Origin: an uncultured Planctomycetaceae bacterium
Lineage (GTDB): Bacteria; Planctomycetota; Planctomycetia; Planctomycetales; Planctomycetaceae
Assembly (NCBI GenBank): GCA_963815195.1
Contig: CAWFGE010000012.1
Location: forward strand, 192,001-256,000
DNA: 64,000 nucleotides
Reading direction: 5' to 3'
Numbering within the stretch: the stretch's first letter is position 1; each line of letters begins with the position of its first letter. A program made the position numbers and the translations under genes. Below the pieces are notes generated by a model that made no database searches, was not told where the DNA came from, and saw only the letters and a program-made list of their open reading frames with translations. Below are positions 12,588 to 39,461 of the stretch, piece after piece.

Positions 12588-12798
12588 ATTTTTGGAAGTA
12601 CGGAATTTGGTAACATCTCCCCGAACCCGAAACACGTCGTTCCCGAGTCCGCACAAGCGCTCGTAACGAATCAGCCGGCTTACGCCGGCCGCTCGCCAGG
12701 GGGCAAATTGGTCATTCGGGCTTGGTCATTGGGATTTTATCAATCCAGCACTTCCTGATACAATTCGCGGAACAAATGCAACTCGTTTCGGAGCCTTG

Positions 12799-15391
12799 AT
12801 GATGAGTCGAAGATTGTCCCGCCTGTTGGTCGTCGTGGTTTGTGGTTGCGTTTGCCTGGGCTGTGAAGCCGGGTGGACGGGGTTGATGGCCTCTGCGCTG
12901 GGCGAAGGGGAAAAAGCTTCCCCAGTCGGCGAGGCGAAATCGAAATCCGAAGCCCCGCCCAAAAAACACCCGGCGAACCGGTTGGCCCGCGAGACGAGTC
13001 CTTATCTGTTGCTCCACGCCCACAATCCCGTGGACTGGTACGCCTGGGGGCCGGAGGCTTTCGAGAAAGCCAAGAAGGAAAACAAGCCTATCTTTCTGTC
13101 CATAGGCTACAGCAGTTGCTATTGGTGCCACGTCATGGAGCGCAAAGTCTTCATGAACGAGGACCTCGCCAAGTACATGAACGAGCATTTTGTGTGCATT
13201 AAGGTCGATCGCGAAGAACGGCCCGAAATCGACGACATCTACATGACCGCGTTGATGATCTACCTGCAAGCCGCGGGTTCATCGCAAGGCGGCGGCTGGC
13301 CGTTGTCGATATTTCTGACGCCGGCGGGCAAACCGATCGCCGGCGGCACGTACTTTCCGCCCCAGGCCGAGAAGGGCCTGCCCGGGTTCGGCGACGTGAT
13401 GAAAGTCATCGACAAAGCCTGGAAGGACAATCAGAAAGCCGTCGAGGAAAACGCCGAGGTCTTCGCCCGCGAAGTCCAGCGAAACATGAAGCCCCGCTTC
13501 GGGCTGGAAAACGTGCCGCTGGATCGCAGCCTGGTCGCAGCCGCGGCCCAAGCCGTTCGGGACTCGGCGGACCCGGAATACGGCGGCGTGGATTTCGATG
13601 CGGAATCTCCGAACCGACCCAAGTTCCCGGTGCCGGTGAAGCTGGCCCTGCTGCAATACAATGTCCTTCGCACTGGCGATCAACAAGCCGCGAAGGTGCT
13701 CGATCAGACGCTCGAACACATCGCCAAGGGCGGGATTCGCGATCACCTGGGCGGCGGGTTTCATCGTTACAGCACAGATCGGCGTTGGCTCGTGCCTCAT
13801 TTTGAAAAGATGCTCTACGACCAGGCCCAGCTTGCCGCCGTTTATGCCGAGGCCTTCCGCCGCACACACAACCCCGAATACCGCGCCGCCGCCGAGGACA
13901 CGCTCGACTTCGTGCTCCGTGATCTCAAGGATTCCGCCGGCGGGTTTCACTCGGCCCTCGATGCCGAGACCGAAGGCGTCGAAGGCCGGTATTATGTGTG
14001 GGACAAATCCGAGATCGAAAAGATCCTAGGCCCCGAGAATGCTAAGCTCTTTAACGCGGTTTACGGTCTCGATGAACCCAAGCACTTCGAAGAGGGCTAC
14101 GTGCTCTATCGCCCCGCGGCGTGGGACAAACTCGCGGAGGCTCAGAATCTCACGGTCTCGGAACTCCAATCCAAGCTCGCCCCGCTCCGGCAGAAACTGC
14201 TCGCCGCCCGCAAAAAACGTTCGCCGCTTTTGAAAGATGATAAAATCCTCGCGAGTTGGAACGGTTTGATGATCCGGGCCCTCGCCGAGGCTGGGGACGA
14301 CCTCGGCCGGCCGGAATATATCAAAGCCGCGGAAGCCGCGGCCGTGTTTGTGCTCGCGCACATGCGGGACAAACAGGGCCGATTGCAGCGCACCTACGGC
14401 AAGGGTCAGGCCAAGTTGAATGCCTATCTCGACGACTATGCGTTTCTGATCGAAGGCCTGTTGGCGATTTATGAAGCCACCCACGATCAAAAATGGCTCA
14501 ATGCGTCCGAGCGGTTGATGGACGACCAAATCCGGCTGTTCTGGGACGAGAAAGGCGACGGGTTTTTCTTCACGGCCCATCATCACGAGGAACTCATCGC
14601 CCGCATCAAGCAGGCCGACGACACGGTGCTGCCTTCGGGCAACAGCGTGAGCGTGCGGAACCTCGTCCGCCTCGCCTCGCTCACCGGGCAGGACAAATAC
14701 AAAGGTTACGCCGAGAAGACCCTCAAGCTGTTCGCGCCGCGCTCAAGTCCCGCCCGCGGGGCATGGCGAACATGGCCCTTGCGCTCGGGGAGTTTTTGGA
14801 CGATGCGAACGCCGCCCCCCGCAAAGAAACGTCCGATGCGAAAGAACAAAGCGAAACCAAAAACGCGATCCTCTTGGTCGCCGCCCAGTCCCCGCGCCCG
14901 AAGAAGGCAAAAAGCGGGAGATCGTCACCGCCAAGGCGTATCTCAACGTGGACAAACTCCCGCCCGGGGGCAGTTGCGAGATCGTGGTGTTTCTGGACGT
15001 CCAGGAAGGTTGGCACATCAATGCCAATCCCGCCCAGCCGAAAAACCTGATCCCCACCGAGTTCACGATCACCTCAAAAGCCGGTGTGAAGCTCTCCGAT
15101 GTGACCTATCCGGAAGGCCAGCCGGTGCTGATCGAAGGCTTCGATGAAGCTGCGCTCGTTTACGAGAAAAAAGCCGTCCTACGCGGCAAGCTCACGATCC
15201 CCGCCGATGTGAAGAACGCCGCGTTTGATCCCCTGGAGATCAAAATCCGTTACCAACCCTGCAACGACAACCAATGCCTCGCCCCGAAGACGGCCAAACT
15301 CACCGGCAAAGTCCCCATCGCCCCGCCGGGGCAGCCGGTGAAGTCGATCAACGAGAAACTGTTCCCCAAACCGGATTCAAAAAGACAATAG
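12799..15391 (+). CDS. YyaL/SSP411 (DUF255 thioredoxin + alpha/alpha toroid) protein with C-terminal DsbD-N-like domain; two frameshifts (~14735, ~14910)
   Basis: [32 protein letters not shown] and [10 protein letters not shown] motifs. Alternative frames continue ...[17 protein letters not shown]... and ...[16 protein letters not shown]...GWHINAN...[12 protein letters not shown]. Confidence 0.85.
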
Positions 15392-16122: not shown

Positions 16123-17592
16123 ATGGATCTAAGGCATCGGCGGTACACGGAAAAGCCGCTCGTTAAAACCAAAATCATCGCCACGGTGGGGCCGGCGTGT
16201 TGGGAGCGGGAACGGCTGAAGGATTTGATCATCGCCGGGGCCGACTTATTTCGGCTCAACTTCGCCCACGGGCAGTACGACATTTTGGACCGCGTGCTGG
16301 CGGATATCCGGGCGGTGTCCAAAGAACTCAAGCGGCCCATCGGCGTCTTGGGGGATTTGTCGGGGCCGAAAATTCGCCTGGGGCAACTGCCGGACGAGGG
16401 CATCTATTGCGAGATGGGGCAGCAGTTCCATTTTGTGCGCGGCGACGTGTCCTCGGAACCGAACCAGCTCACCTGCACTTACGACAGGCTGATCGACGAC
16501 CTGCGGGCGGGCGACCGGATTCTGCTCGCCGACGGCACCGTGGCGATGCGGGTCATCGGCACCAACGCCCAGGAAGGCCGAATCGTCTGCACCGTGGAAG
16601 TGCCGGGCCTCCTTCGCAGCCGGCAGGGGATCAACCTGCCCGGCGTCACGCTTTCGACGCCGAGCCTCACCGACAAAGACAAAGCCGACCTCGATTGGGC
16701 CATTCAGAACGAACTGGATTTCATCGGCTTGAGCTTCGTCCGCCGGGCGGACGATGTCCGGCTTTTAAGGCAGGAGATCAACGCCCGAAAGCCCGCCCAT
16801 CCGCCGCACATCGTCGCCAAAATCGAGAAGATGGAAGCCGTCACCGAACTCGACGAGATTCTCGAACTGACCGATGCGGTGATGGTCGCCCGCGGCGATT
16901 TGGGCGTCGAAGTCGATATCGAGCGCGTGCCCACGCTGCAAAAGCGGATTGTGAAGCTCTGCAATCGGCATCGCATTCCGGTCATCACCGCCACGCAGAT
17001 GCTCGACAGCATGCAGGAGCACGAACGCCCCACGCGGGCCGAGGCCAGCGACGTCGCCAACGCGGTTCTGGACGGCAGCGACGCGGTGATGCTCTCCGGC
17101 GAGACGGCCATCGGCAAATTCCCGACCGAAGCGGTGTCGATGATGAGCCGCATCGCCTGGGAAGCCGAGCGGCTGGTCACTCCCAACCGCTTCGGCGATC
17201 CCGATAGCAACCCCAATACGCGGGCCACGCTGGTCACCGAAGCCGTCACGCTGGGAGCCGGCGCCGCCGCCGAGCGGCTGGAAGCGGATCTCATCGTAAT
17301 CGCCACGCACTCCGGCCGGACGGCGATGGCCCTCTCCAAGCAGCGGGGCAAGGTTCCAATCCTGGCGATCACCGACCGCCCCGCCTCCGCCCGCCGGATG
17401 TGCCTCTACTGGGGCATCACCCCCTTGGAGACCGAAGCCGTCCACAAGCTCCCGCACGAACTGTTGGAGTACGTCGTCGAGTGGGGCCAGCGGGAAGAAG
17501 TCCTCGAACGCGGCGGCCGCTTAGTCCTCGTCACCAGCACCGACTGGTCCGCCGAGGGCAAGAACCTCATGCTGGTCCACGCGCTGCCCTGA
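16123..17592 (+). CDS. pyk: Pyruvate kinase
   Basis: KTKIIATVGPA, RLNFAHG, DLSGPKIR, MVARGDLGVE, ATQMLDSM and DAVMLSGETA motifs. Confidence 0.97.
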   Translation: MDLRHRRYTEKPLVKTKIIATVGPACWERERLKDLIIAGADLFRLNFAHGQYDILDRVLADIRAVSKELKRPIGVLGDLSGPKIRLGQLPDEGIYCEMGQQFHFVRGDVSSEPNQLTCTYDRLIDDLRAGDRILLADGTVAMRVIGTNAQEGRIVCTVEVPGLLRSRQGINLPGVTLSTPSLTDKDKADLDWAIQNELDFIGLSFVRRADDVRLLRQEINARKPAHPPHIVAKIEKMEAVTELDEILELTDAVMVARGDLGVEVDIERVPTLQKRIVKLCNRHRIPVITATQMLDSMQEHERPTRAEASDVANAVLDGSDAVMLSGETAIGKFPTEAVSMMSRIAWEAERLVTPNRFGDPDSNPNTRATLVTEAVTLGAGAAAERLEADLIVIATHSGRTAMALSKQRGKVPILAITDRPASARRMCLYWGITPLETEAVHKLPHELLEYVVEWGQREEVLERGGRLVLVTSTDWSAEGKNLMLVHALP

Positions 17593-17613: not shown

Positions 17614-20578
17614 TTAGTCGCCAAGTCCATCGAAAAATGGGCCGTATTTCTGAAGGCGTGCAAAGCGATCCTTGGCTTTCTCTGGCGTATAGTTTTTTCG
17701 GAAGCTCGCATCGATTTCATAATGTTTGCGAATGATGAGCCAAGGAGTCAGATTCTCCTCCAACTTCATTTCTTCAATTCGGCCGTCGCGAAGATCGAGA
17801 AGGAAAACTTCCGACATCAACGCCATAGCGATTTCCACCGGGCCGAACTTATTATTGCTTTCGATCCATCCAGAAAGCTGATCCAAAGATCGGGTTTTGT
17901 AAAAGGCGTCGTCATTAAACGGAGAATTCGGGTTCCTCTTTCTCATTCGCTCGCTACGAACAATATGAAAGGCCCAGACAAACTGCCGAGCCGTGTCGTA
18001 ATCCAAATTCCGGTTGGCTCCAATTTCACAAAGCTGTGCCATGAGACGATCCGCATCTTGGGGGCTGAACTCTTTTCGTTCCAAGTCCGAGATAACCGAC
18101 GTTAGCCATTCGGATGTTTCGCGGCACTCTCGCTTCAATAGGTCAGTATCGCCCTCCAAAGCCTTGTTCATGGACCGTTCGACCTTGGTCATCCTATCGT
18201 CAAACCCCGCTCCACGGTGCCTCGTCGTGAAATCGCAGGCCAGCCTGGCCATTTCCACTGACCATTGGGAAGGGGGGCGCTTTGAGATGTTTCGTTTGTC
18301 GAAGCACTTCTTTAGCTCCGCATATCGCGATTCGGGGAGCACATTTGGTGCATATTCAATCCAGCTAGGACTCTCTATGGGAATTGTCAGCTCGTGATCG
18401 CACAAATCCGCGATCAACTTCAACTGCTCGTTGAGATAAACGAGCGAGTTGAGCAACACGCGCTGAGCGCGCATGTGGTCGTTAATGTCGAACTTCTGTT
18501 TGCATTTCTTCAGCCATTCTTCGCGAATCCCGACTGCCTTTTCATCCAGATCCCGCCAATGCCGAGGCATTTGGGACAAAAACGTCTCCACTTCAAACCG
18601 GGGTAATGGTGGGTGTCCGGCGCGATACATTTCCGGCGTGATAAACCGTCCCGCGCGGAGATTCCCTTGATGACACGACAAGCACAACTGAGACTTTGAA
18701 ACCGGCGAAAAAAGGTTGTACATCCCAAACTGTTCTTGTTTCTGTTCCGCCGTGAGAAACCGCCATTCCTGTTTGGAAATATGTTTCGCTTCCCAACCCT
18801 TTGCTTCTTTCGTTCCTCCCGCCGCGCCATGGCAGCCTTCACAATCGACGCCGTGAATAAGACTATTTAACTTCAGCATCTCAGCGGAAATAAGACCGTC
18901 TTGATCTCGCTGCAATTCCTTAAGAGGAATGCCGGAATGGCACGCCACGCAGCGGGCATCGCGATGCACGACCGATTTGCCTTTCGCATCGACGATTCCC
19001 AATTCTTTGCCAATGGCTATTGCACGGTCGGTTATCAGGATCAAGAAGGCGCCGTGGTGCATGTCATTACTCGCCCAAGTCGAGGCTTCATTGAGGAGCA
19101 CCCAATTGTCATCCCGAGAATGTAACGGTAAAAAACCCATGGCTTGATCCGCACTTCGTTTTGCCGCATGACAGCGGATACAGTGGACCACGTCGGTTGG
19201 TTCACGGTGCTGCGAATGAGGCAGCACGACGTAAGGCGCGTCGCCGGAAAAAGCTGGAGCGGGCTTTAGTACCGCGTCAATGGAAATGGGGCACTCCGAA
19301 GGAGGACCCGTTTCAGGAATTGGTGGCAACGGAACCGATTTCTTTCGGTATGGTGTGGCAGACCCAGACGAGGCGGCCGGTGGAAATTGATCGGACGTTG
19401 ACGAGCCAGCGGCTTTAAGTGGGCCGGCGCCGGTGCTTCGGTCCGGTTCCGATTTCGACGAAGATGATTCAGCCTGCCCGTCGTCTTCCTGGGTCACTCC
19501 CGCGCGAAACAAGATCCCAGCGAGAATCAGCATCGCCAAACCGGCCGTGGTGAACCACCCGATCTTGCGAATCTTTGCGTGCGCGGCGTTCGCGCTTTAA
19601 GCGTTTGACGCGATCGGGGATCACGGGATCCTGGCCGATCGCCTTTTGCAGGTCCAATGCCAACTCTTCCGTCGTCTGATACCGGTCCTCCGGATTCTTT
19701 CGCAGGCACCGCAAACAGATCCGCTCGAGGTTTTTGGGGCATTTCGGAGCGAGCTTCCGAGGCTTGGGCGGCTCGGTGTGCACCGAGTCATAAATCAAGC
19801 TGGAGAGGCTTCCCTGGAATGGCGGCCGGCCCGTAAATAGCTCGAACAGAATCACCCCCAGGGAATAGATATCCGCTCTGCGATCGGCTTCATGGCCCTT
19901 GCCGCGGGCTTGCTCGGGCGGCATGTAGGCCGCCGTGCCCATGACTTTGCCATCCTCCGTCAGGGTGGCTTCCCCGCGTTCCCGTTTGGCCAGACCGAAA
20001 TCCGCAATATGCGGTTCTCCGTGGGGATCAATCAGCAGGTTGGAAGGTTTCAAGTCGCGATGTACGACACCATTTTCGTGAGCGTGATGCAATGCCAAGG
20101 CAACCCGCGCGATCAAATCGGCGGCGCTGATCGCGTCGAGATCGCGATCCCCCGACAGCCAATCCTTGAGATTGATGCCGTCGATATATTCGCTGACGAT
20201 GTAGGGCCGATTCTCGTGGAGACCCACTTCCAGGATCTTCACGATATGCGGATGCTGCAGGTGCGCCGCGGCCCGGGCTTCGCGGAGAAACGCCTCGGCT
20301 TCTTCCTGAGTCAGGCAGTCGCGATGCGGAATCTTGACGGCCACCACCCGATCGAGGTTATTGTCGTGCGCCTTCCAAACAACGCCGAACGCCCCTTGGC
20401 CCAAACAAGTCAAACAATCGAACCGGCCAATCGAAAGGGCGGCCTGCGTATGATAAGTGATGGTATCCGACGGCACGAAGTTCAAATGCCGGCCACAACT
20501 GGAGCAATCGATCCCTGTGGCCTGCACATCTTCGACCAGTGTTGAGGCGTTTTGACAAAACGGGCAACGGATAATCAT
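17614..20578 (-). CDS. Ser/Thr protein kinase fused via a TM helix to a tetraheme cytochrome c (c554-like) domain; split by a 1-bp indel at ~19574
   Basis: Kinase ORF: GQGAFG, VAVK, HRDLKPSN, DFGL, GTAAYMPPE, DIYSLG. Downstream ORF: CIRCH, CVACH, CEGCH, CLSCH and GHPPL. Removing one A gives ...RERRARKIRKIGWFTTAGLAMLILAGILFR. Confidence 0.8.
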
Positions 20579-20699: not shown

Positions 20700-23148
20700 T
20701 CACTCCACCGATTCCGCGGCGAGGCGTTCGTAGGTTTTGATGGCTCTTTGATACGCCTGATGCGCGGCTTCGCGTTCGGGCGGGGCGATTTTCGTGTGGC
20801 GGTTTTTCCAGAGGAGTTTGATCGTCTCCGCGCACCAGCAGGCGCTGTTTTTGGAAACGCGGATCGGTTTGTCCGCCACGATCACGTTGACCGGGTTGGT
20901 GTGCAGCTCGGGGAATTGGCGGAGGGCGATCCAGGTGCTTTGGTCCACGTCGATTTGGAATTTTAGGTCGTGGAGTTTGCCGTCGGCGGGGACGGTTTGT
21001 TTCGCCACGACTTTTCCGCCCGCGACGATTTCCACCAGCCGCGGGCCGCCTTGGACCATCTCCGTGGAGCGCGGGGCGTGGAGTTCTCGCGTGTCGCCCA
21101 CGTCCCGCCGGCCGGTTGCGGGCATGAGTTGGCCGTACGCGACCGCTTTGGGAACTTCCGGGGCGAAGGCGACTTTGGCTTTGATCGTGACTTGCCCCGG
21201 TGCTTTCAGGCGAACATCCTCGCGGCCCGGTGTTTGGCCGCCCACTTCAAATTCCACCGCGTGGGCATAGCCGTCGGAAACATAAGACCGGCCCTTGCCC
21301 AAGCCTTCGCACCAGGCATGGAAGTCCACGTGATCGACTTGCCCCAAGAGCACATACACCCGCCCCTGTCCGACCCGTCGGCTGCTCATGCAGGGGAAAT
21401 CCGTTTCGCCGCTGAGCTTCAAAGGGAAGCCGCAGTTCATCAGGTGATACCACGTGTTCCACTCGCCGATGCGCTCGGTGTCCATCGCGGAGACAAAATC
21501 GCACACGCCCTCGGCCGTGCTCACGCAAATCTCCATCGCCCCGCCGCCGTTCATCTCGGGGACCGCCAGGTTCGGCAATTGATCGGCCGCGCGGTCGAGG
21601 CTCAACGTCAACTCGCGTTCGGTGAGAAACCGGTCGCCGTCGGCGTCAATCTTTATAAACGGTTCCGGCATCAAACCCGCGGCGGCTTCGACCTGGTTAA
21701 GTTTCCCGTCTTTATCTTCATCAAGCGAGATCAACAACCGCTTGGCGGCGGCGGGCGGGTTGACCTGCATCGCCGAGTGCGGATAGCCGGTGACGCCGCC
21801 TTGCTGTTTGCACCAGCGGAGCACGGGCACCGTCCACGTCGGCCAGCCCTCGGTCTTCGTACCTTTCGATCCCGGGTAGGTCTGGTCCTTGAGATTGAGC
21901 AAACACACATGCCCCATCGCCGCGGAGCCGAACCCGCTGATTTCCAGATCGTACTTTAAGAGCGTGAAGGGCTCGCTGATGTCGGCCGCCTGCGGGGAAA
22001 AGTATTGCCGCTGAAATTCAAAGCAAGGCCCCCACGTCAAGACGCAGCCCACGTTGAGGCCTTCGCCTTTGACCTGGGCGAACATGTCCCGCGGCGTCAC
22101 GCCTTGGGTGGGGCTTTCGTAATGGGCGCAGCCGGCTCCGTGGATGTGATGATCGCCGCCATAAAACCCGAACGCCTCCGGATCGATCCAGCGTTCAAGC
22201 TTGACGTTGATAGTTGCCGGCCCTTTCGCGGGAACTAGGACCTCGTGCTGTTTTGACTTTGTATTCCGGCCCGCGGCAGGATTCCAACGTAAACTTCCCC
22301 GGCGGCAAGAGCACCGTCTGGCCGTCGTGCCGATAGATTTGCGGCTGGAAGAAAAAGTCGGGAGCCAGGCGCTTGGCCTGCGGCGGATAGACCCGGCCCT
22401 TTGCATCGCGAAAGATCAAGCGGGCCGCGGTGGGCCGGCCATTGTCATCGCGAATGTTCATCCGCACGGGAACGGCGGGGCGAACCTCGAACAGCACCGG
22501 CACCTCGCCTCGAAAACCGAGGTCCTGCGTCCCGGCCCCGACATCGAAGCCGATCGTCGCCTCGCGCTTGCCGGCTTCGCTGCTGTAGATCAGGGCGATC
22601 GCGTATTCCACTTCCAAGCCGCTGAGGTTCCGCGTCATCGGCGGCGACCCGAACATCTCGACATCCAAGAACCGATCGGCCTCGCCCTGGGTGTTTTCGT
22701 TTTCCTTGAGTTCCGTCTGCGCCTGGCGGGTGAGACTGTTCAGGCTCGCGCCGGAATACACCGCCCCGGACTGGGGGCTGGTGATCTTCAGCTTGCGCGT
22801 GACGGTGCTATGATTGTGCACCTTGACCAACACCGGCGTGTAACCCCCCTGCTGCAAGACCGCATTCGCCGGTCCGCGCCCGACCTTCACCCGCACTTCC
22901 GGGTTGAGGGCAACGGCAAACAACACGTGCGGATCCAACTGTTCCTGAAGCCGCTTCGCATCCCGCTTCTTCGCCGCGTCCAAAACCGCCCGCGAAGTTT
23001 TCTCTGGCAATGGCGCTCCCAAAAACTCGAGCGCCTCGACCACCCGCTTCGCATTCGCCCCCAGCGGCTGGCCTTCGACAGCCTCGATCGGCAACGAAGA
23101 TTCCGCCGCCGCGGTGCCCGCGCTGAGCAAGACAATCCACAAGCCCAT
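20700..23148 (-). CDS. CehA/McbA-family (PHP-like) metallohydrolase with EF-hand pair; frameshift at ~22252
   Basis: GDHHIHGAGC, GHVCLL, GYPHS and SGETDFPC motifs; DEDKDGKLNQVE and DADGDRFLTERE EF-hand-like loops; frames join at an A4 run (EYKVK-QHEVLV). Confidence 0.8.
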
Positions 23149-29503: not shown

Positions 29504-31390
29504 TTATTGGCGGAGCAGCTTGCGAACGCGTTCCGCCTTCTCGAGCGTTCGTTCGGCTGCCTGGTGATTTCCGGCTTTGGCCTGGGCTTCGGCAAGCAGG
29601 CGGTAGACCTCGAATTGGTCGGGCTTTAATGCGAGAGCTTTCTCAAACACCGCCGCGGCTCCGTCGGCATCCTGTTCGTCAAGCCGGCAAACGCCGAGCA
29701 TTTGCCAATCCACGGCTCTCAGGCGGATCGCCGTGAGCTGCTCGAAGGCGCGTTTTGCTTTAGAGAGTTTGCCGTTCCGCAGATTCATGTCGCCCACAAT
29801 AATCAACGCATTGACCTTGCTGTCCGGTTCGCAATCGGGAGCTTGGAGTGCGTGTTCCGCGAATTTCAGAGCGCTCGGATCGTCTTCGTTCCATAACAAA
29901 TACGCCAGGCCCGCGGTGACGGCCGGATCTTGAAGCCCGCCTTCATAAGCCTGATTTAAGTGAAGGAATGCTTGCTTTAGCAGTTGGTCTCGTTCCTCGC
30001 CGGTCTGCTTTTCCCCGAAATGGAGCGAAGCCAAACCCAGGCAACGCTCGCGGTCCAATATTGGAAGATGGGAAACGTCCTCCACAGGAACGAGCCTCGC
30101 CGAGGCGGTCCGTTTCTGATAGCTCGTGACATGATCTCGTCCGATGCGATGATGCGTAAACGCGAAATGCGGGATGTTCGTGTCGGATTTCGGCATATGG
30201 CAGGCGGTGCAATCGTTCGCCGGGTTTTGCGCGAGCCGTTTTGGTTCCGGAATTCGGCAGCCCTTGCCCGGTTCCGCATGGCAGGAGAGACACTTTTGGC
30301 GATAGTAGCCGACTTTCGCGGCCGGTTCGGGAGGATCATGCGGATGATGGCAGGTCGTGCAGGTCAACGTCTCGGATTGGCGATAACAGGCGCTTTGGCG
30401 CATTTGCTCAAAGTGCCCCACAACGGTCATCGACTGCGAACTCTGCTCGGTTGTGTAATCGATGCGGTAATCCGTCAGCGGCAGACCGGGGCGGAAATCG
30501 CTCAAGTGCCGGCCGCGCACGCTCGCCGAGCCCGCCGCCGACAGATGGCAACGGGCGCAAATTGCTTCGTTTAACTTTCGGGGTAACTTGCCGGGATGGA
30601 TGATCGTCAAATCCCGCTCGCCTTGAATTACGGCTCCACCGCTTCGAACATCGGCGTGGAGCGAACCGGGGCCGTGGCAACTCTCGCAGCCGATTTGCAT
30701 CTCGTGAAACCGCAAACGGTGGGTGCTTCCTCCTTCGGCGTCCACTCGGCCCGCGTGGCATCGCACGCAGCCTTCGTGCGCTTGCCGGAGAAACCCTTCA
30801 TGCATCGGGAAATCGTAGCCGGGCGAAACCGCCCAGCGCTTTGTGGATGCGTACCATGTGATGGGAGATTCCAAGAGATAGCCGTCGATGTCAATCAAAT
30901 AGCTCCGCGAGTGATGCCCCGAACCGATGCGATAGGCCACGGGATAATCGCCCAGAACCAGTTCGTCCTTCGAGCCGCCCTTGATCACTTCCCGGTGACG
31001 AACTTCGCCCGCCTTGCGGTACACCTGATACGACCGCCCGGACGGTTTGTGATCGAACTCTCCGTCGGGTGGCTCCTCTTGCAGCGGAGCTCTTTCCAAA
31101 GCATGGTAATGCGACGTCGCCTGGAACGCCCGATACTGCTCCTGATGACAGTCGCGGCAAGCCTGGCTGCCAAGGTAGTCAGCGGCGGACTTCGTATTGA
31201 GATACGGCGAAACCGCCAGTTTGGGAAGCGGCGGAGCCGAGGGACGGCTCTTGTGAAGCGCCGCGTCGCTGAATGTGTGGGGGGACTCGGTCGTGCGACT
31301 GGAAACCCACAGCCACGCGCCGCCGCCCAATGCCAAGAGGAGCGAACCGAAAACCAATCGGCGTTTCGGATCATTCATGGGAGAACTCAT
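29504..31390 (-). CDS. Multiheme cytochrome c (7 CxxCH) with C-terminal TPR repeats
   Basis: CRDCH, CVRCH, CESCHGPG, CARCH, CTTCH, CLSCH and CTACHMP motifs; N-terminal TM helix; helical TPR tail. Confidence 0.88.
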   Translation of the reverse strand: MSSPMNDPKRRLVFGSLLLALGGGAWLWVSSRTTESPHTFSDAALHKSRPSAPPLPKLAVSPYLNTKSAADYLGSQACRDCHQEQYRAFQATSHYHALERAPLQEEPPDGEFDHKPSGRSYQVYRKAGEVRHREVIKGGSKDELVLGDYPVAYRIGSGHHSRSYLIDIDGYLLESPITWYASTKRWAVSPGYDFPMHEGFLRQAHEGCVRCHAGRVDAEGGSTHRLRFHEMQIGCESCHGPGSLHADVRSGGAVIQGERDLTIIHPGKLPRKLNEAICARCHLSAAGSASVRGRHLSDFRPGLPLTDYRIDYTTEQSSQSMTVVGHFEQMRQSACYRQSETLTCTTCHHPHDPPEPAAKVGYYRQKCLSCHAEPGKGCRIPEPKRLAQNPANDCTACHMPKSDTNIPHFAFTHHRIGRDHVTSYQKRTASARLVPVEDVSHLPILDRERCLGLASLHFGEKQTGEERDQLLKQAFLHLNQAYEGGLQDPAVTAGLAYLLWNEDDPSALKFAEHALQAPDCEPDSKVNALIIVGDMNLRNGKLSKAKRAFEQLTAIRLRAVDWQMLGVCRLDEQDADGAAAVFEKALALKPDQFEVYRLLAEAQAKAGNHQAAERTLEKAERVRKLLRQ

Positions 31391-36796: not shown

Positions 36797-37117
36797 CGAT
36801 TGGCGGGACAGGCCGCCGCGACGGACCGATCCATATCGGAAATTCCGCCGGGGAGGACAGGCGAATTTCCGAAAAAACCGATTTTTTGCGAACGAGCCGG
36901 GCGAAAAAGTGATCTCAGAGAGGAACCACTCCATTTTGACGGGGGGAGTTTTCCGACTTTCCCCCCCGAAACCTTTCAGAGATCGTTTTGGGAACGTACG
37001 CTTTCCATGGGTACCCGCTCGGTTTTATTGAAACGTACGGTGGACTTCCCTTCCTCCGAAGGGGAAGGAGTCGAGCGTATCCCGTCGGTTCTCACTCCCA
37101 TCGATTGCCAAATCATT

Positions 37118-39461
37118 ATGAGCACGGTTCCCGATTCGCTGAGCCAACTTGTGGAAATGGGCCTCCTGACGGAAGACGACCTCAGCATCTGCGGCGAAGT
37201 CTCGAAGCCCGAAGACGCCTCGGTCGATCACCTGATCGATTTGCTTGTGGAGCGGCGGCGGCTGACGAAATACCAGGCCGACGTGATCTCGGGCCGGCGG
37301 CCGGGCATGCTGGTGATGGGCGAATACATCATCCTCGAACGCCTGGGGGCGGGGGGGATGGGCGTGGTGTATAAAGCCTACCACCGCCGGATGCACCGGG
37401 AAGTCGCGATCAAGGTGCTGTTGGAATCGGGGATTCAATCGGAAGACAAGATCGAGCGGTTCCGCCGGGAGGCGATCGCGGCCGCCCGGATGAATCACCC
37501 GAACATCGTCACGGCCTACGATGCCAACGAGCACGAAGGCATCCCGTACCTGGTGATGGAATATGTCAAGGGCCGCGACTTGGGGTCGCTGGTCAAAAAG
37601 GGCGACAAGCTGTCGGTGCCCGAAGCGGTGAACTACATGCTGCAAACCGCGCGGGGCATGGAGTATGCCCACAGCCGGCACATCATCCACCGCGACCTCA
37701 AGCCTTCGAACCTGCTATTGGCATCGCCGGACGATTCGGACATCCGGCCGGGACAATATTCCCGCGTGAAGATCCTGGACATGGGCCTCGCGAGGCTCAC
37801 ACAGCCGCAGGGCGACCTGGTTTCGCCCGCCTTGGAAGGCAGCGATCTGTCGGCGACGGGGATGCTCATGGGCACCGTGGACTACATGGCCCCCGAGCAG
37901 GCGATGGACACCAAGCGGGCGGACCACCGCTCGGACATCTACAGCCTGGGCTGCACGCTGTATTACCTGCTGACCAAAAAGCCCGTCTATACCGGGGCGA
38001 ACCTGCTCGAGCGGATCTCCGCCCATCTGAAAGCGCCGATCCCTTCACTCAAGGAAGCCCGCCCGGACGCCCCGGACGAACTCGACGAAGTCTTCCAGAA
38101 GATGGTCGCCAAGAAGCCCCGCGAGCGCTATCAATCGATGACGGAAGTCGCCGACGCCCTCCAAAAAGTCGACCGCCAACTCAGCGGACCCAACGCCAAC
38201 CAAGGCCTCTGGGACAGCGGCAGCTTTTCTGGGAGCGGCCAGATTCAACTGCCCGGCTCCTCTTACGGCGGATCGCAGCCCGGTTCGGATTCCCACGGCT
38301 CCGCTCCCACGATCGCTTCCGGTTCCGGCCCGTTCGCCGGGGCGCCGGGTTCCTCCTTCGGCAGCACCGCGTATGACGACGGGTTTTCCACCGGCACGGC
38401 GACGGGCAGCGTCCCCGCCACGGGCATGCCGCTCGTGCAGAAGCTGATCATGGTCGTGCTTATGGGGTTGATGGCCGGTGCCCTGGTGGCGATCGTCGCC
38501 AAACTCAAAAACCGCACCACCGAAGTGGTGGAGATGCCGCCCGCTAAGCCGCCGGCCCCCTATCTGCCGGCGAACTTTGTCACGTTGCCCGATTCCCAGA
38601 TCATCCAGGTGAAAGACCAGGGCAGTGTGCACCGGTATTACAGCGTGATCGCCTTGGACCTAAGGAAGTTATTGCAGGTCAAGGCCCTTCCGCCCCGCGC
38701 CGCGATCGCCCAGAACGCCAGCGGACCCGCGATCGCCGAGAAACTGTTGGCCGCCGATCCGTACGTGCGGTTCCGGCTGGTCGTTCCGGGCGAGGGGCAG
38801 CAACTCCGGCCGTTTTACATGATGGAAACCAAGGTCTGGAACGACCTGTTCCGCGTGTTCGCCCAGGCGCACCCCGAACGGCTTGATCCGGAAACCAGGT
38901 GGACGCAAACAGCCGACGGCCGGCTGCCGGTGTATTTTGTGAGCGTCAAAGAAGCGGACCGCTTCGCCCGCTGGATCGGCGGCCGTTTGCCTTCGGGCGA
39001 TCAATGGGACACCGCGGCGGGGTTCTATCTCGCCGAGGAAGACCGCGGCGAGGGACCGTTCGTCTCCCGGCAAAACGGCATGCCCAACGTCGCGGTTCAC
39101 GGCGGCCCCGTGCGCGGTGGATTTCCCCAGCGACGATGTCAGCCCGCTCGGGATCAAACACATGGCAGGCAACGGCCGCGAGTTCACGCGCAGCATGATC
39201 AAGGGCAGTGAACTTCAAGAGGACACGGAGTTCACGGCCATCGCCGACGGCGTCTTTTTACGAGGCTGGAGCTTTGAGGACCTTAATGAGCTCCCCTTGT
39301 CGTACGACGACATGCAAAGAAATGGCAAAAACGTCCATCCGGACGCGTGGGGGATCGATTTCAAATCCACGTCCGACACGTCGTTCCGCGTCGTGGTGGA
39401 GATCCCCCAAGCTTCCAAAACCAAAACCCAGACCAAAAAACCTCCGCAAGAGAAAAAGTGA
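37118..39461 (+). CDS. Ser/Thr kinase - TM - FGE-sulfatase (SUMF1-like) domain protein; frameshift ~39107
   Basis: GAGGMG, HRDLKPSN, DMGLA, GTVDYMAPE; TM LIMVVLMGLMAGALVAIV; FYMMETKVWN and GRLPS..W. The alternative frame gives SPLGIKHMAGNGREF...LRG...SFRVV. Confidence 0.85.

What the first reader, a model, noticed from the sequence alone, without database searches (positions are those of the whole stretch)
17614..20578. Hidden fusion: Hanks Ser/Thr kinase - TM - tetraheme cytochrome c, a candidate redox/gas-sensing receptor kinase
Seen: the ORF track shows two overlapping ORFs. Deleting one A from the A3 run at ~19574 gives one ~990-aa protein. It has an N-terminal CPFC...CSSC zinc-ribbon-like motif, an intact kinase (HRDLKPSN, DFG), a basic stretch KRLKRERRARKIRK, a single TM helix, a Ser/Pro linker, four CxxCH motifs and a helical tail. 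Known: CxxCH hemes are attached outside the cytoplasm, and the positive-inside rule puts the kinase inside. Inference: this is a one-component receptor coupling the state of periplasmic hemes (redox or ligand) to protein phosphorylation. I do not know of a characterised example of this architecture.
Basis: partly seen in the sequence, partly recalled or inferred. Interest (0 to 1): 0.85.

Follow-up and report, generated by a model that had tools for sequence, protein, structure and literature searches.

The report
Four-heme receptor Ser/Thr kinase
This gene, split here by one extra base that is likely an assembly error, joins a Ser/Thr protein kinase through a single predicted membrane helix to a cytochrome c554-like domain with four heme-attachment motifs, a pairing found unbroken in relatives and likely to turn the redox state of hemes outside the cell membrane into protein phosphorylation inside.

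Summary
One surplus base in the T3 run at 19574-19576 (minus-strand gene) separates a zinc-ribbon/Hanks kinase frame from a TM-linker-4xCxxCH-helical frame; read through, the product has 987 codons. Two natural proteins (P0003, 941 aa; P0004, 859 aa) carry the architecture unbroken, and a same-genus genome has kinase, TM and heme 1 in one frame. This assembly breaks 17 of 99 genes tested against a closed genome, so the split is probably an error; no reads covered the junction. The heme domain is a cytochrome c554 homologue (HMM E 1.2e-12; fold Z 9.2). It derives from a widespread, apparently exported pentaheme planctomycete protein; this clade lost heme 5 together with an otherwise invariant His. 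The same module is joined to two unrelated kinases and to an iSTAND-MoxR-vWA protein, so it was likely recruited more than once. The fusion is rare. Four conserved spare histidines for four hemes favour redox over gas sensing, but neither is shown. Closest precedent: a 2026 preprint on an NO-binding single-heme receptor that acts on a separate Ser/Thr kinase. New variant of a known kind.

The parts
17614..20578 (-). Whole gene, 987 codons when read through the one-base break
   Evidence: intact homologues P0003 and P0004 match both frames in order
20495..20566 (-). N-terminal CPFC...CSSC zinc-ribbon-like motif
   Evidence: Pfam zinc-ribbon hits below cut-off; kept in P0003, P0004 and G002; similar motifs precede related kinases with other C-termini
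19667..20410 (-). Hanks-type Ser/Thr kinase domain (residues 57-304), RD type, all catalytic motifs present, three Thr in the activation loop
   Evidence: Pfam Pkinase E 1.4e-53; motifs located
19564..19606 (-). Basic juxtamembrane stretch spanning the break
   Evidence: same stretch in one frame in P0003, P0004, G002
19574..19576 (-). A3 run (T3 on the + strand) holding the surplus base; likely assembly error
   Evidence: genome-wide break rate
19507..19563 (-). Single predicted transmembrane helix
   Evidence: mean hydropathy 2.01; none in the C-terminal part of frame A (0.15)
19183..19506 (-). Ser/Pro-rich linker, about 108 residues
18538..19200 (-). Cytochrome c554-like tetraheme domain: CxxCH at 19168-19182, 18937-18951, 18829-18843, 18670-18684; invariant spare His at 19057-19059, 18781-18783, 18613-18615, 18559-18561; Pro at 18634-18636 where standalone relatives have His
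18334..18363 (-). Place where standalone relatives have a fifth heme motif (CxxCHH); replaced in this clade
   Evidence: alignment; counts
17617..18537 (-). Helical C-terminal domain, predicted as two helical bundles
   Evidence: AlphaFold2 model, mean pLDDT 85.1; best fold matches EfeM/EfeO/imelysin-like Z 10.3-10.5, below the level that is telling for helical bundles

Best explanation
The two overlapping frames are one gene, likely split by an assembly error, for a predicted single-pass receptor kinase whose four-heme c554-like outer domain likely reports its redox state to the cytoplasmic Ser/Thr kinase. Shown: the domain order, intact natural homologues, the c554 relationship, the loss of heme 5 and of one otherwise invariant His, and purifying selection on both halves. 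Inferred: the genome's cytochrome c maturation system attaches four hemes in the periplasm; the four invariant spare histidines make them six-coordinate electron carriers; the hemes take or give electrons with periplasmic partners, perhaps the multiheme operon from which the domain derives; a redox-linked change in shape or pairing of the outer domain brings kinase domains together, which then phosphorylate each other's activation-loop threonines (recalled behaviour of PknB-type RD kinases) and downstream targets. I put about 0.9 on one real gene, about 0.75 on the hemes being the input, and about 60:40 on redox versus bound gas.
For: Intact fusions P0003 (72% identity over the kinase frame, 44% over the heme frame) and P0004 (67%, 42%). 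G002:C17 has kinase, TM and heme 1 in one 445-aa frame and breaks at two other places. This assembly breaks 17 of 99 genes against closed genome G022 (0.18 per kb), including four breaks in the long gene after rpoB; the reverse control gave 4 events in 106 pieces, all in genes that one search shows broken in G000. At 0.18 per kb a 2.96-kb gene has about a 40% chance of at least one break (my arithmetic). Window against G002: dN 0.23 (kinase), 0.43 (hemes 2-4), 0.65 (helical part) with dS saturated or 2.5. Heme domain: best solved match is Nitrosomonas c554 by profile (1BVB, E 1.2e-12) and by fold (Z 9.2, rmsd 4.7, 167 aligned, next row 4.8). Spare His at alignment positions 58, 150, 206, 224 are present in 106 of 106 rows. 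Position 199 is His in 103 of 106 rows and Pro in the three fusions in that alignment, which are also the only rows with fewer than five CxxCH, so one heme and one likely ligand were lost together, leaving four and four. The module also sits behind a TM helix on two other kinases (G157, 1126-codon frame; P0262, 926 aa) and on the vWA-like protein of a TIR-iSTAND/MoxR system, whose C-terminal slot is described as variable (PMC7159879, section 20). One clade for the window-type kinases plus P0262 is rejected (p-AU 0.015).
Against: No reads cover the break. Both genomes of the genus that hold this gene have it broken, though at different places; the intact copies are two unnamed assembled proteins, each seen on one contig. 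No experiment shows heme binding, kinase activity or coupling. Heme ligation is counted from sequence only; no coordinates were available. Heme 2 aligns with the active-site heme of NrfA and with c554 heme 2, which I recall as five-coordinate, so it may bind a ligand instead. In the one tested heme-c/Ser-Thr-kinase system, oxidation or reduction alone changed kinase activity less than NO did (bioRxiv 10.64898/2026.05.25.727664, Discussion). The 108-residue Ser/Pro linker makes direct mechanical coupling to the TM helix unlikely. On the heme domain alone a single origin of all six kinase-fused modules is not rejected (p-AU 0.055), and the G157 kinase was left out of both kinase trees because my pattern missed it; its separate origin rests on 29% identity and a different N-terminus. 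Gene neighbours are not conserved between the two genomes, so context gives no target.
Confidence: 0.48

Rival explanations
1. Same receptor, but the input is a small ligand such as NO, CO, nitrite or hydroxylamine bound at a five-coordinate heme 2, with the His of the GHP motif lining the pocket instead of binding iron.
For: [quoted passage not shown] NO stimulates phosphorylation in the Cache_heme-HAMP/kinase system (abstract, Introduction and Discussion read). The GHP motif resembles the HP motif around NrfA's distal His (recalled, not tested).
Against: Four invariant spare His for four hemes. The profile alignments with c554 and NrfA stop just after heme 4 and do not place the GHP His. The standalone parent sits in an operon of multiheme and iron-sulfur proteins that looks like an electron path.
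Confidence: 0.22
2. The outer domain is a binding module for a protein, surface or metal, through the helical bundles or the pocket left by heme 5; the hemes are mainly structural, and the kinase is one more product of planctomycete domain shuffling.
For: Sister kinases carry interchangeable C-termini such as WD40-like repeats, short helical tails or a Tll0287 heme domain; G000 alone gave 42 matches to the kinase query at E<=1e-40. The module also fills the variable slot of an iSTAND system, where FGS and peptidoglycan-binding domains are usual. The helical domain resembles EfeM/EfeO metal binders in fold. The clade rewrote the heme-5 region in a conserved way.
Against: All four heme motifs and four His stay invariant while the rest drifts to 40-53% identity. 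The EfeO match is below the telling level for helical bundles, and I saw no HxxE metal motif (motif recalled) in the tail.
Confidence: 0.18
3. The extra base is real and the gene is a recent pseudogene in this strain, leaving a soluble kinase and perhaps a separately made cytochrome.
For: No reads to exclude it. The G002 copy is broken too. The gene is dispensable at genus level: G001 and G003 gave no fused match.
Against: Breaks of this kind hit about a sixth of the genes tested, essential ones included; G002 and G003 have breaks even in rpoB. There is no in-frame stop in 987 codons and every catalytic motif is intact. Even if true, the architecture stands on P0003 and P0004.
Confidence: 0.07
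4. Programmed ribosomal frameshifting yields both a free kinase and the full receptor.
For: The break falls exactly between kinase and membrane helix.
Against: Three of three relatives are in frame at this junction; the site lacks a classical slippery heptamer (sequence; criterion recalled).
Confidence: 0.02

Closest known systems
Cache_heme-HAMP (CHH) receptor with its Ser/Thr kinase, Pseudomonas azotoformans (bioRxiv 10.64898/2026.05.25.727664; abstract, Introduction, Discussion read)
   Same: Periplasmic covalently bound heme c coupled across the membrane to a PknB-like Ser/Thr kinase.
   Different: There one heme in a Cache fold, a HAMP domain and a separate kinase acting in trans; here four hemes in a c554 fold, one TM helix, no HAMP, kinase in the same chain.
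Single-pass receptor Ser/Thr kinases of the PknB/StkP/PknE type
   Same: N-terminal Hanks kinase, one TM helix, outer sensor; top solved matches of the kinase part are StkP, PknB, PknA, PknE.
   Different: Outer domain is a multiheme cytochrome, not PASTA or other known repeats; N-terminal zinc-ribbon-like motif; no substrate or operon known.
Cytochrome c554 (CycA) of Nitrosomonas europaea, PDB 1BVB
   Same: Four heme motifs; hemes 2-4 and two spare His align by profile; fold Z 9.2 over residues 2-204.
   Different: About 20% identity; followed by a 300-residue helical domain; membrane-tethered to a kinase; an extra invariant His (GHP); no hydroxylamine oxidoreductase context seen.
Uncharacterised planctomycete pentaheme pair (Pfam PF13435 proteins in an operon with a cNMP-binding/4Fe-4S protein, a further multiheme cytochrome and an LVIVD multiheme protein)
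   Same: Direct source of the outer domain: 39-42% identity to the genus's own copies, sister to them in the tree (SH-aLRT 89).
   Different: Standalone, with an N-terminal hydrophobic stretch instead of a kinase, five hemes and His199; found in 133 of 401 genomes of the class.
iSTAND-MoxR-vWA ternary systems (PMC7159879; passages and section 20 read)
   Same: One such system in G002 carries the same heme module after a TM helix.
   Different: The window gene is not part of such a system; section 20 lists no cytochrome among the C-terminal domains (its source-data supplement was not opened).

Membership tests
Hanks-type Ser/Thr kinase (Pkinase) | Pfam PF00069 above cut-off | tested here: met
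   182.4 bits against 31.7
Hanks-type Ser/Thr kinase (Pkinase) | Gly loop, VAxK Lys, alphaC Glu, HRDxKPxN, DFG, APE-like motif | tested here: met
   GQGAFGVV, VAVK, FLREA, HRDLKPSN, DFG, PPEQ
Hanks-type Ser/Thr kinase (Pkinase) | Phosphotransferase activity | not testable with these tools
   needs an assay
Single-pass receptor kinase (PknB-like layout) | Kinase, one TM helix and outer domain in one chain | tested here: met
   P0003, P0004; in the window only across the one-base break
Single-pass receptor kinase (PknB-like layout) | PASTA repeats of PknB proper | tested here: not met
   no PASTA hit in frame B, P0003 or P0004
Cytochrome c554 family (PF13435 / 1BVB) | Four heme motifs in c554 spacing and c554 fold | tested here: met
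Cytochrome c554 family (PF13435 / 1BVB) | Distal His for hemes 1 and 4 (c554 His102, His27; numbering recalled) | tested here: met
   both align with invariant His of the profile
Cytochrome c554 family (PF13435 / 1BVB) | Five-coordinate heme 2 able to bind NO | tested here: inconclusive
   position matches but an extra invariant His could fill the site; no coordinates available
Cytochrome c554 family (PF13435 / 1BVB) | Covalent heme attachment | not testable with these tools
   motifs and maturation genes present; needs heme stain or mass spectrometry
NrfA pentaheme nitrite reductase | CxxCK active-site heme | tested here: not met
   the aligned motif is CxxCH
Cache_heme-HAMP / STPK system | Tll0287/DUF3365 (PF11845) single-heme Cache domain | tested here: not met
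   no PF11845 hit in frame B; the same library detects it in L084
Cache_heme-HAMP / STPK system | Cytoplasmic HAMP domain and separate kinase | tested here: not met
   no HAMP hit; kinase is in cis
Planctomycete pentaheme module (parent) | Fifth CxxCH in the helical domain and His199 | tested here: not met
   both absent in the four members of this clade
Imelysin/EfeO-like | Two-bundle helical fold | tested here: inconclusive
   Z 10.3-10.5, rmsd about 5, 6-11% identity; under the level that is telling for helical bundles

The most novel reading that the evidence does not exclude
Planctomycetes have repeatedly turned one module of a periplasmic electron-transfer operon into a receptor: a multiheme wire fused to Ser/Thr kinases at least three times and to an immune-type MoxR system once, giving a eukaryote-style receptor kinase that reads periplasmic electron flow directly, with the loss of heme 5 turning a through-conductor into a dead-end redox gauge.
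Probability: 0.3. Interest if true: 0.85.

Novelty: new variant of a known kind. Interest (0 to 1): 0.63.

Why it matters
Planctomycetes hold dozens of receptor-like Ser/Thr kinases with almost no known inputs. Here the outer domain is coloured and can be titrated, so input and output can be measured in one purified protein, and natural four-heme and five-heme versions give a built-in comparison. If redox controls the kinase, it would be a multiheme sensor wired straight to Ser/Thr phosphorylation, which my ten literature searches did not find described, and it would give a first handle on the widespread but unstudied parent operon. The case also shows that real architectures are hidden by single-base errors in this assembly, where about one gene in six is broken.

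Tried and rejected
Reads: three runs listed, none on record as RNA; one holds short near-identical pieces of the window but nothing over the junction. Complex prediction of the outer domain with the partner cytochrome of the parent operon gave no answer (score 0.00); it is not evidence either way. Foldseek found no match at E<=0.001 for either model; a single-sequence search of solved structures found only a weak MccA hit; the profile search with alignment A2 was swamped by its kinase columns. The protein atlas gave generic kinase clusters and c554 clusters under 0.9. Promoter scan: 0 sites against 1.4 expected. The G001-based break rate (46 of 187 genes) is probably inflated by G001's own errors and was not used. 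Cluster sizes and source names of the fused proteins could not be looked up. Literature searches that found no description of this fusion: 0 papers; listings only, none on the topic; most subscription journals are outside the library, and the planctomycete kinase surveys I recall were not seen. Earlier scan notes by sequence and by words held nothing on this architecture.

Full report
Observation. The locus lies on the minus strand between a convergent pyruvate kinase gene (16123-17592) and an upstream gene ending at 20700. Frame A (20578..19469) encodes a zinc-ribbon-like start and a complete Hanks kinase (Pkinase E 1.4e-53; motifs). Frame B is open from 19596 to 17617 and holds a basic tetrapeptide, one 19-residue hydrophobic helix (hydropathy 2.01), a 108-residue Ser/Pro linker, four CxxCH motifs and a helical tail. 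Four such motifs arose in 0 of 20,000 shuffles. The frames meet at the T3 run 19574-19576; read through, the gene has 987 codons.

One gene, not two. A search for longer relatives of the heme part returned one protein among 5,400 candidates, P0003 (941 aa), with kinase, TM helix and four CxxCH in one chain. A second search listed 120 of 132 hits, two of them kinase fusions, P0003 and P0004 (859 aa; its first heme motif is CxxxCH and it ends earlier). Both match frame A and then frame B in order (72% and 44%; 67% and 42%). The same-genus genome G002 has kinase, helix, linker and heme 1 in one frame and breaks twice further on. Aligned to it, the window has ten surplus bases at the junction, three codons plus one, in a 9-base near-tandem pair whose first copy has one A more than the second.

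Why it is broken here. Proteins from 400 kb of the closed genome G022 found 99 genes in this assembly; 17 of them change frame (21 events, 0.18 per kb), four times in the long gene after rpoB, which I take to be rpoC from its place and length. The reverse test gave 4 events in 106 pieces, all in genes already seen broken in G000. G002 and G003 have breaks in rpoB itself. At this rate a 3-kb gene is hit about 40% of the time. The gene has no in-frame stop, and non-synonymous distance to G002 is far below synonymous distance in all three parts tested. Reads could not decide: none of three runs covers the junction.

The outer domain. An AlphaFold2 model (pLDDT 85.1) has two parts. The first, folded alone (pLDDT 87.5), matches Nitrosomonas cytochrome c554 best (Z 9.2, rmsd 4.7, 167 residues; next row 4.8; NrfA, OcwA and HAO lower), and a profile of 78 such domains finds c554 first among solved structures (E 1.2e-12), aligning hemes 2-4 and two spare histidines. 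The second is helical and resembles EfeM/EfeO/imelysin only at a level that may be generic. Close relatives are standalone proteins of about 500-700 residues with an N-terminal hydrophobic stretch and five CxxCH, present in 67 of 301 genomes of the family and 133 of 401 of the class; named hits are Planctomycetota. In the loci read, they lie beside a paralogue, a further multiheme cytochrome, a cNMP-binding/4Fe-4S protein and an LVIVD multiheme protein. G000 keeps its own copy of that operon elsewhere. In the tree the window clade's module is sister to the genus's own standalone copies (SH-aLRT 89), and both have low GC at third positions (0.54-0.60, about the fifth percentile of long ORFs).

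What changed on fusion. All four members of this clade lack the fifth heme motif and have Pro where 103 of 106 aligned rows have His. Four other histidines are invariant in 106 of 106 rows. The simplest reading is that heme 5 and its ligand were lost together, leaving four hemes and four candidate sixth ligands. That favours six-coordinate electron-carrier hemes. Against this, heme 2 occupies the position of NrfA's five-coordinate active-site heme and of the c554 heme recalled as five-coordinate, so one His may line a ligand pocket instead.

Repeated recruitment. A genome of another genus, G157, has a 1,126-codon frame with a different kinase (29% identity, other N-terminus), a TM helix and the five-heme module. 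P0262 (926 aa, three members) is a third kinase type with the five-heme module. Holding P0262 with the window clade is rejected on the kinase tree (p-AU 0.015, 32 rows; G157 not included), but not quite on the module tree (p-AU 0.055, 50 rows). In G002 the module also ends a vWA-like protein downstream of TIR-iSTAND and AAA genes, a slot that Kaur et al. describe as highly variable (PMC7159879 section 20). The fusions are rare: the junction motif of this clade was found once in the species collection, and no kinase motif lay in 80 metagenome loci.

Mechanism. Shown are the architecture, the homologies and the conservation. Inferred are heme attachment (maturation genes present), the topology (basic residues before the only hydrophobic helix), and the signal. 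I favour redox: the hemes equilibrate with periplasmic carriers and the resulting change in pairing of outer domains drives trans-autophosphorylation, as recalled for PknB-type kinases, which are the nearest solved kinases; the long flexible linker fits control by pairing better than by a rigid push. Gas binding at heme 2 and a non-heme ligand remain serious rivals. Neighbouring genes differ between G000 and G002, so no substrate can be named.

Comparison and novelty. The layout is that of known single-pass receptor kinases; the sensor is new for them as far as my searches reach (listings only). The nearest functional precedent is the Cache_heme-HAMP receptor of Pseudomonas azotoformans, where NO bound to one periplasmic heme c raises phosphorylation by a separate kinase and redox alone does less (bioRxiv 10.64898/2026.05.25.727664; abstract, Introduction, Discussion). 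The companion preprint on the Cache_heme family has no occurrence of c554, multiheme or Planctomyc- in its main text (10.64898/2026.02.01.703092, passages); the supplements of both are closed and might list further architectures. The protein is not a member of that system, nor of NrfA. Verdict: a real, rare, repeatedly evolved multiheme receptor kinase; new variant of a known kind; interest 0.63.

Noticed in passing
L084:4756-6658 (-), G002:C5: A Ser/Thr kinase frame overlaps a frame with TM, Tll0287/Cache_heme domain (Pfam E 1.5e-16) and a second TM; probably one frameshifted gene, i.e. an in-cis version of the Cache_heme/kinase pairing.
   Followed up: partly
L022:2718-8702 (+), G002:C30: TIR-iSTAND, MoxR-like AAA and a 1,200-aa vWA-like protein ending in TM plus the five-heme module; a cytochrome in the variable slot of an iSTAND ternary system.
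   Followed up: partly
L031:2117-16876, G000:C13: Parent operon: cNMP-binding/4Fe-4S protein, a membrane protein, a multiheme cytochrome, two paralogous c554-type pentahemes, and an opposite-strand LVIVD multiheme protein; looks like an unstudied trans-envelope electron path with a nucleotide-binding input; several of its genes are frameshifted in this assembly.
   Followed up: partly
P0097, P0104, P0186, P0230: Natural tandem fusions of the two paralogous modules (9 CxxCH each), hinting that the pair works together.
   Followed up: partly
L168:3429-6806 (+), G157; P0262: Two further kinase fusions of the same module that keep the fifth heme.
   Followed up: yes
window 12796-15391 (+): Overlapping ORFs 12796..15147 and 14948..15391 read like one thioredoxin-domain protein split by a frameshift (label from the sequence, no family scan).
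   Followed up: no
window 20700-23148 (-): Overlapping ORFs 20700..22406 and 22195..23148 directly upstream look like one gene split by a frameshift; only weak EF-hand hits for the first.
   Followed up: no
window 29504-31390 (-): Another multiheme protein with c554/c7 hits and C-terminal TPR repeats.
   Followed up: no
window 36800-39211 (+): A second Ser/Thr kinase, with an FGE-sulfatase domain, followed by a 1,639-aa WD40 protein.
   Followed up: no
G000:C19:20340-22872: Four frame changes in the long gene after rpoB; a quick gauge of this assembly's error rate.
   Followed up: yes
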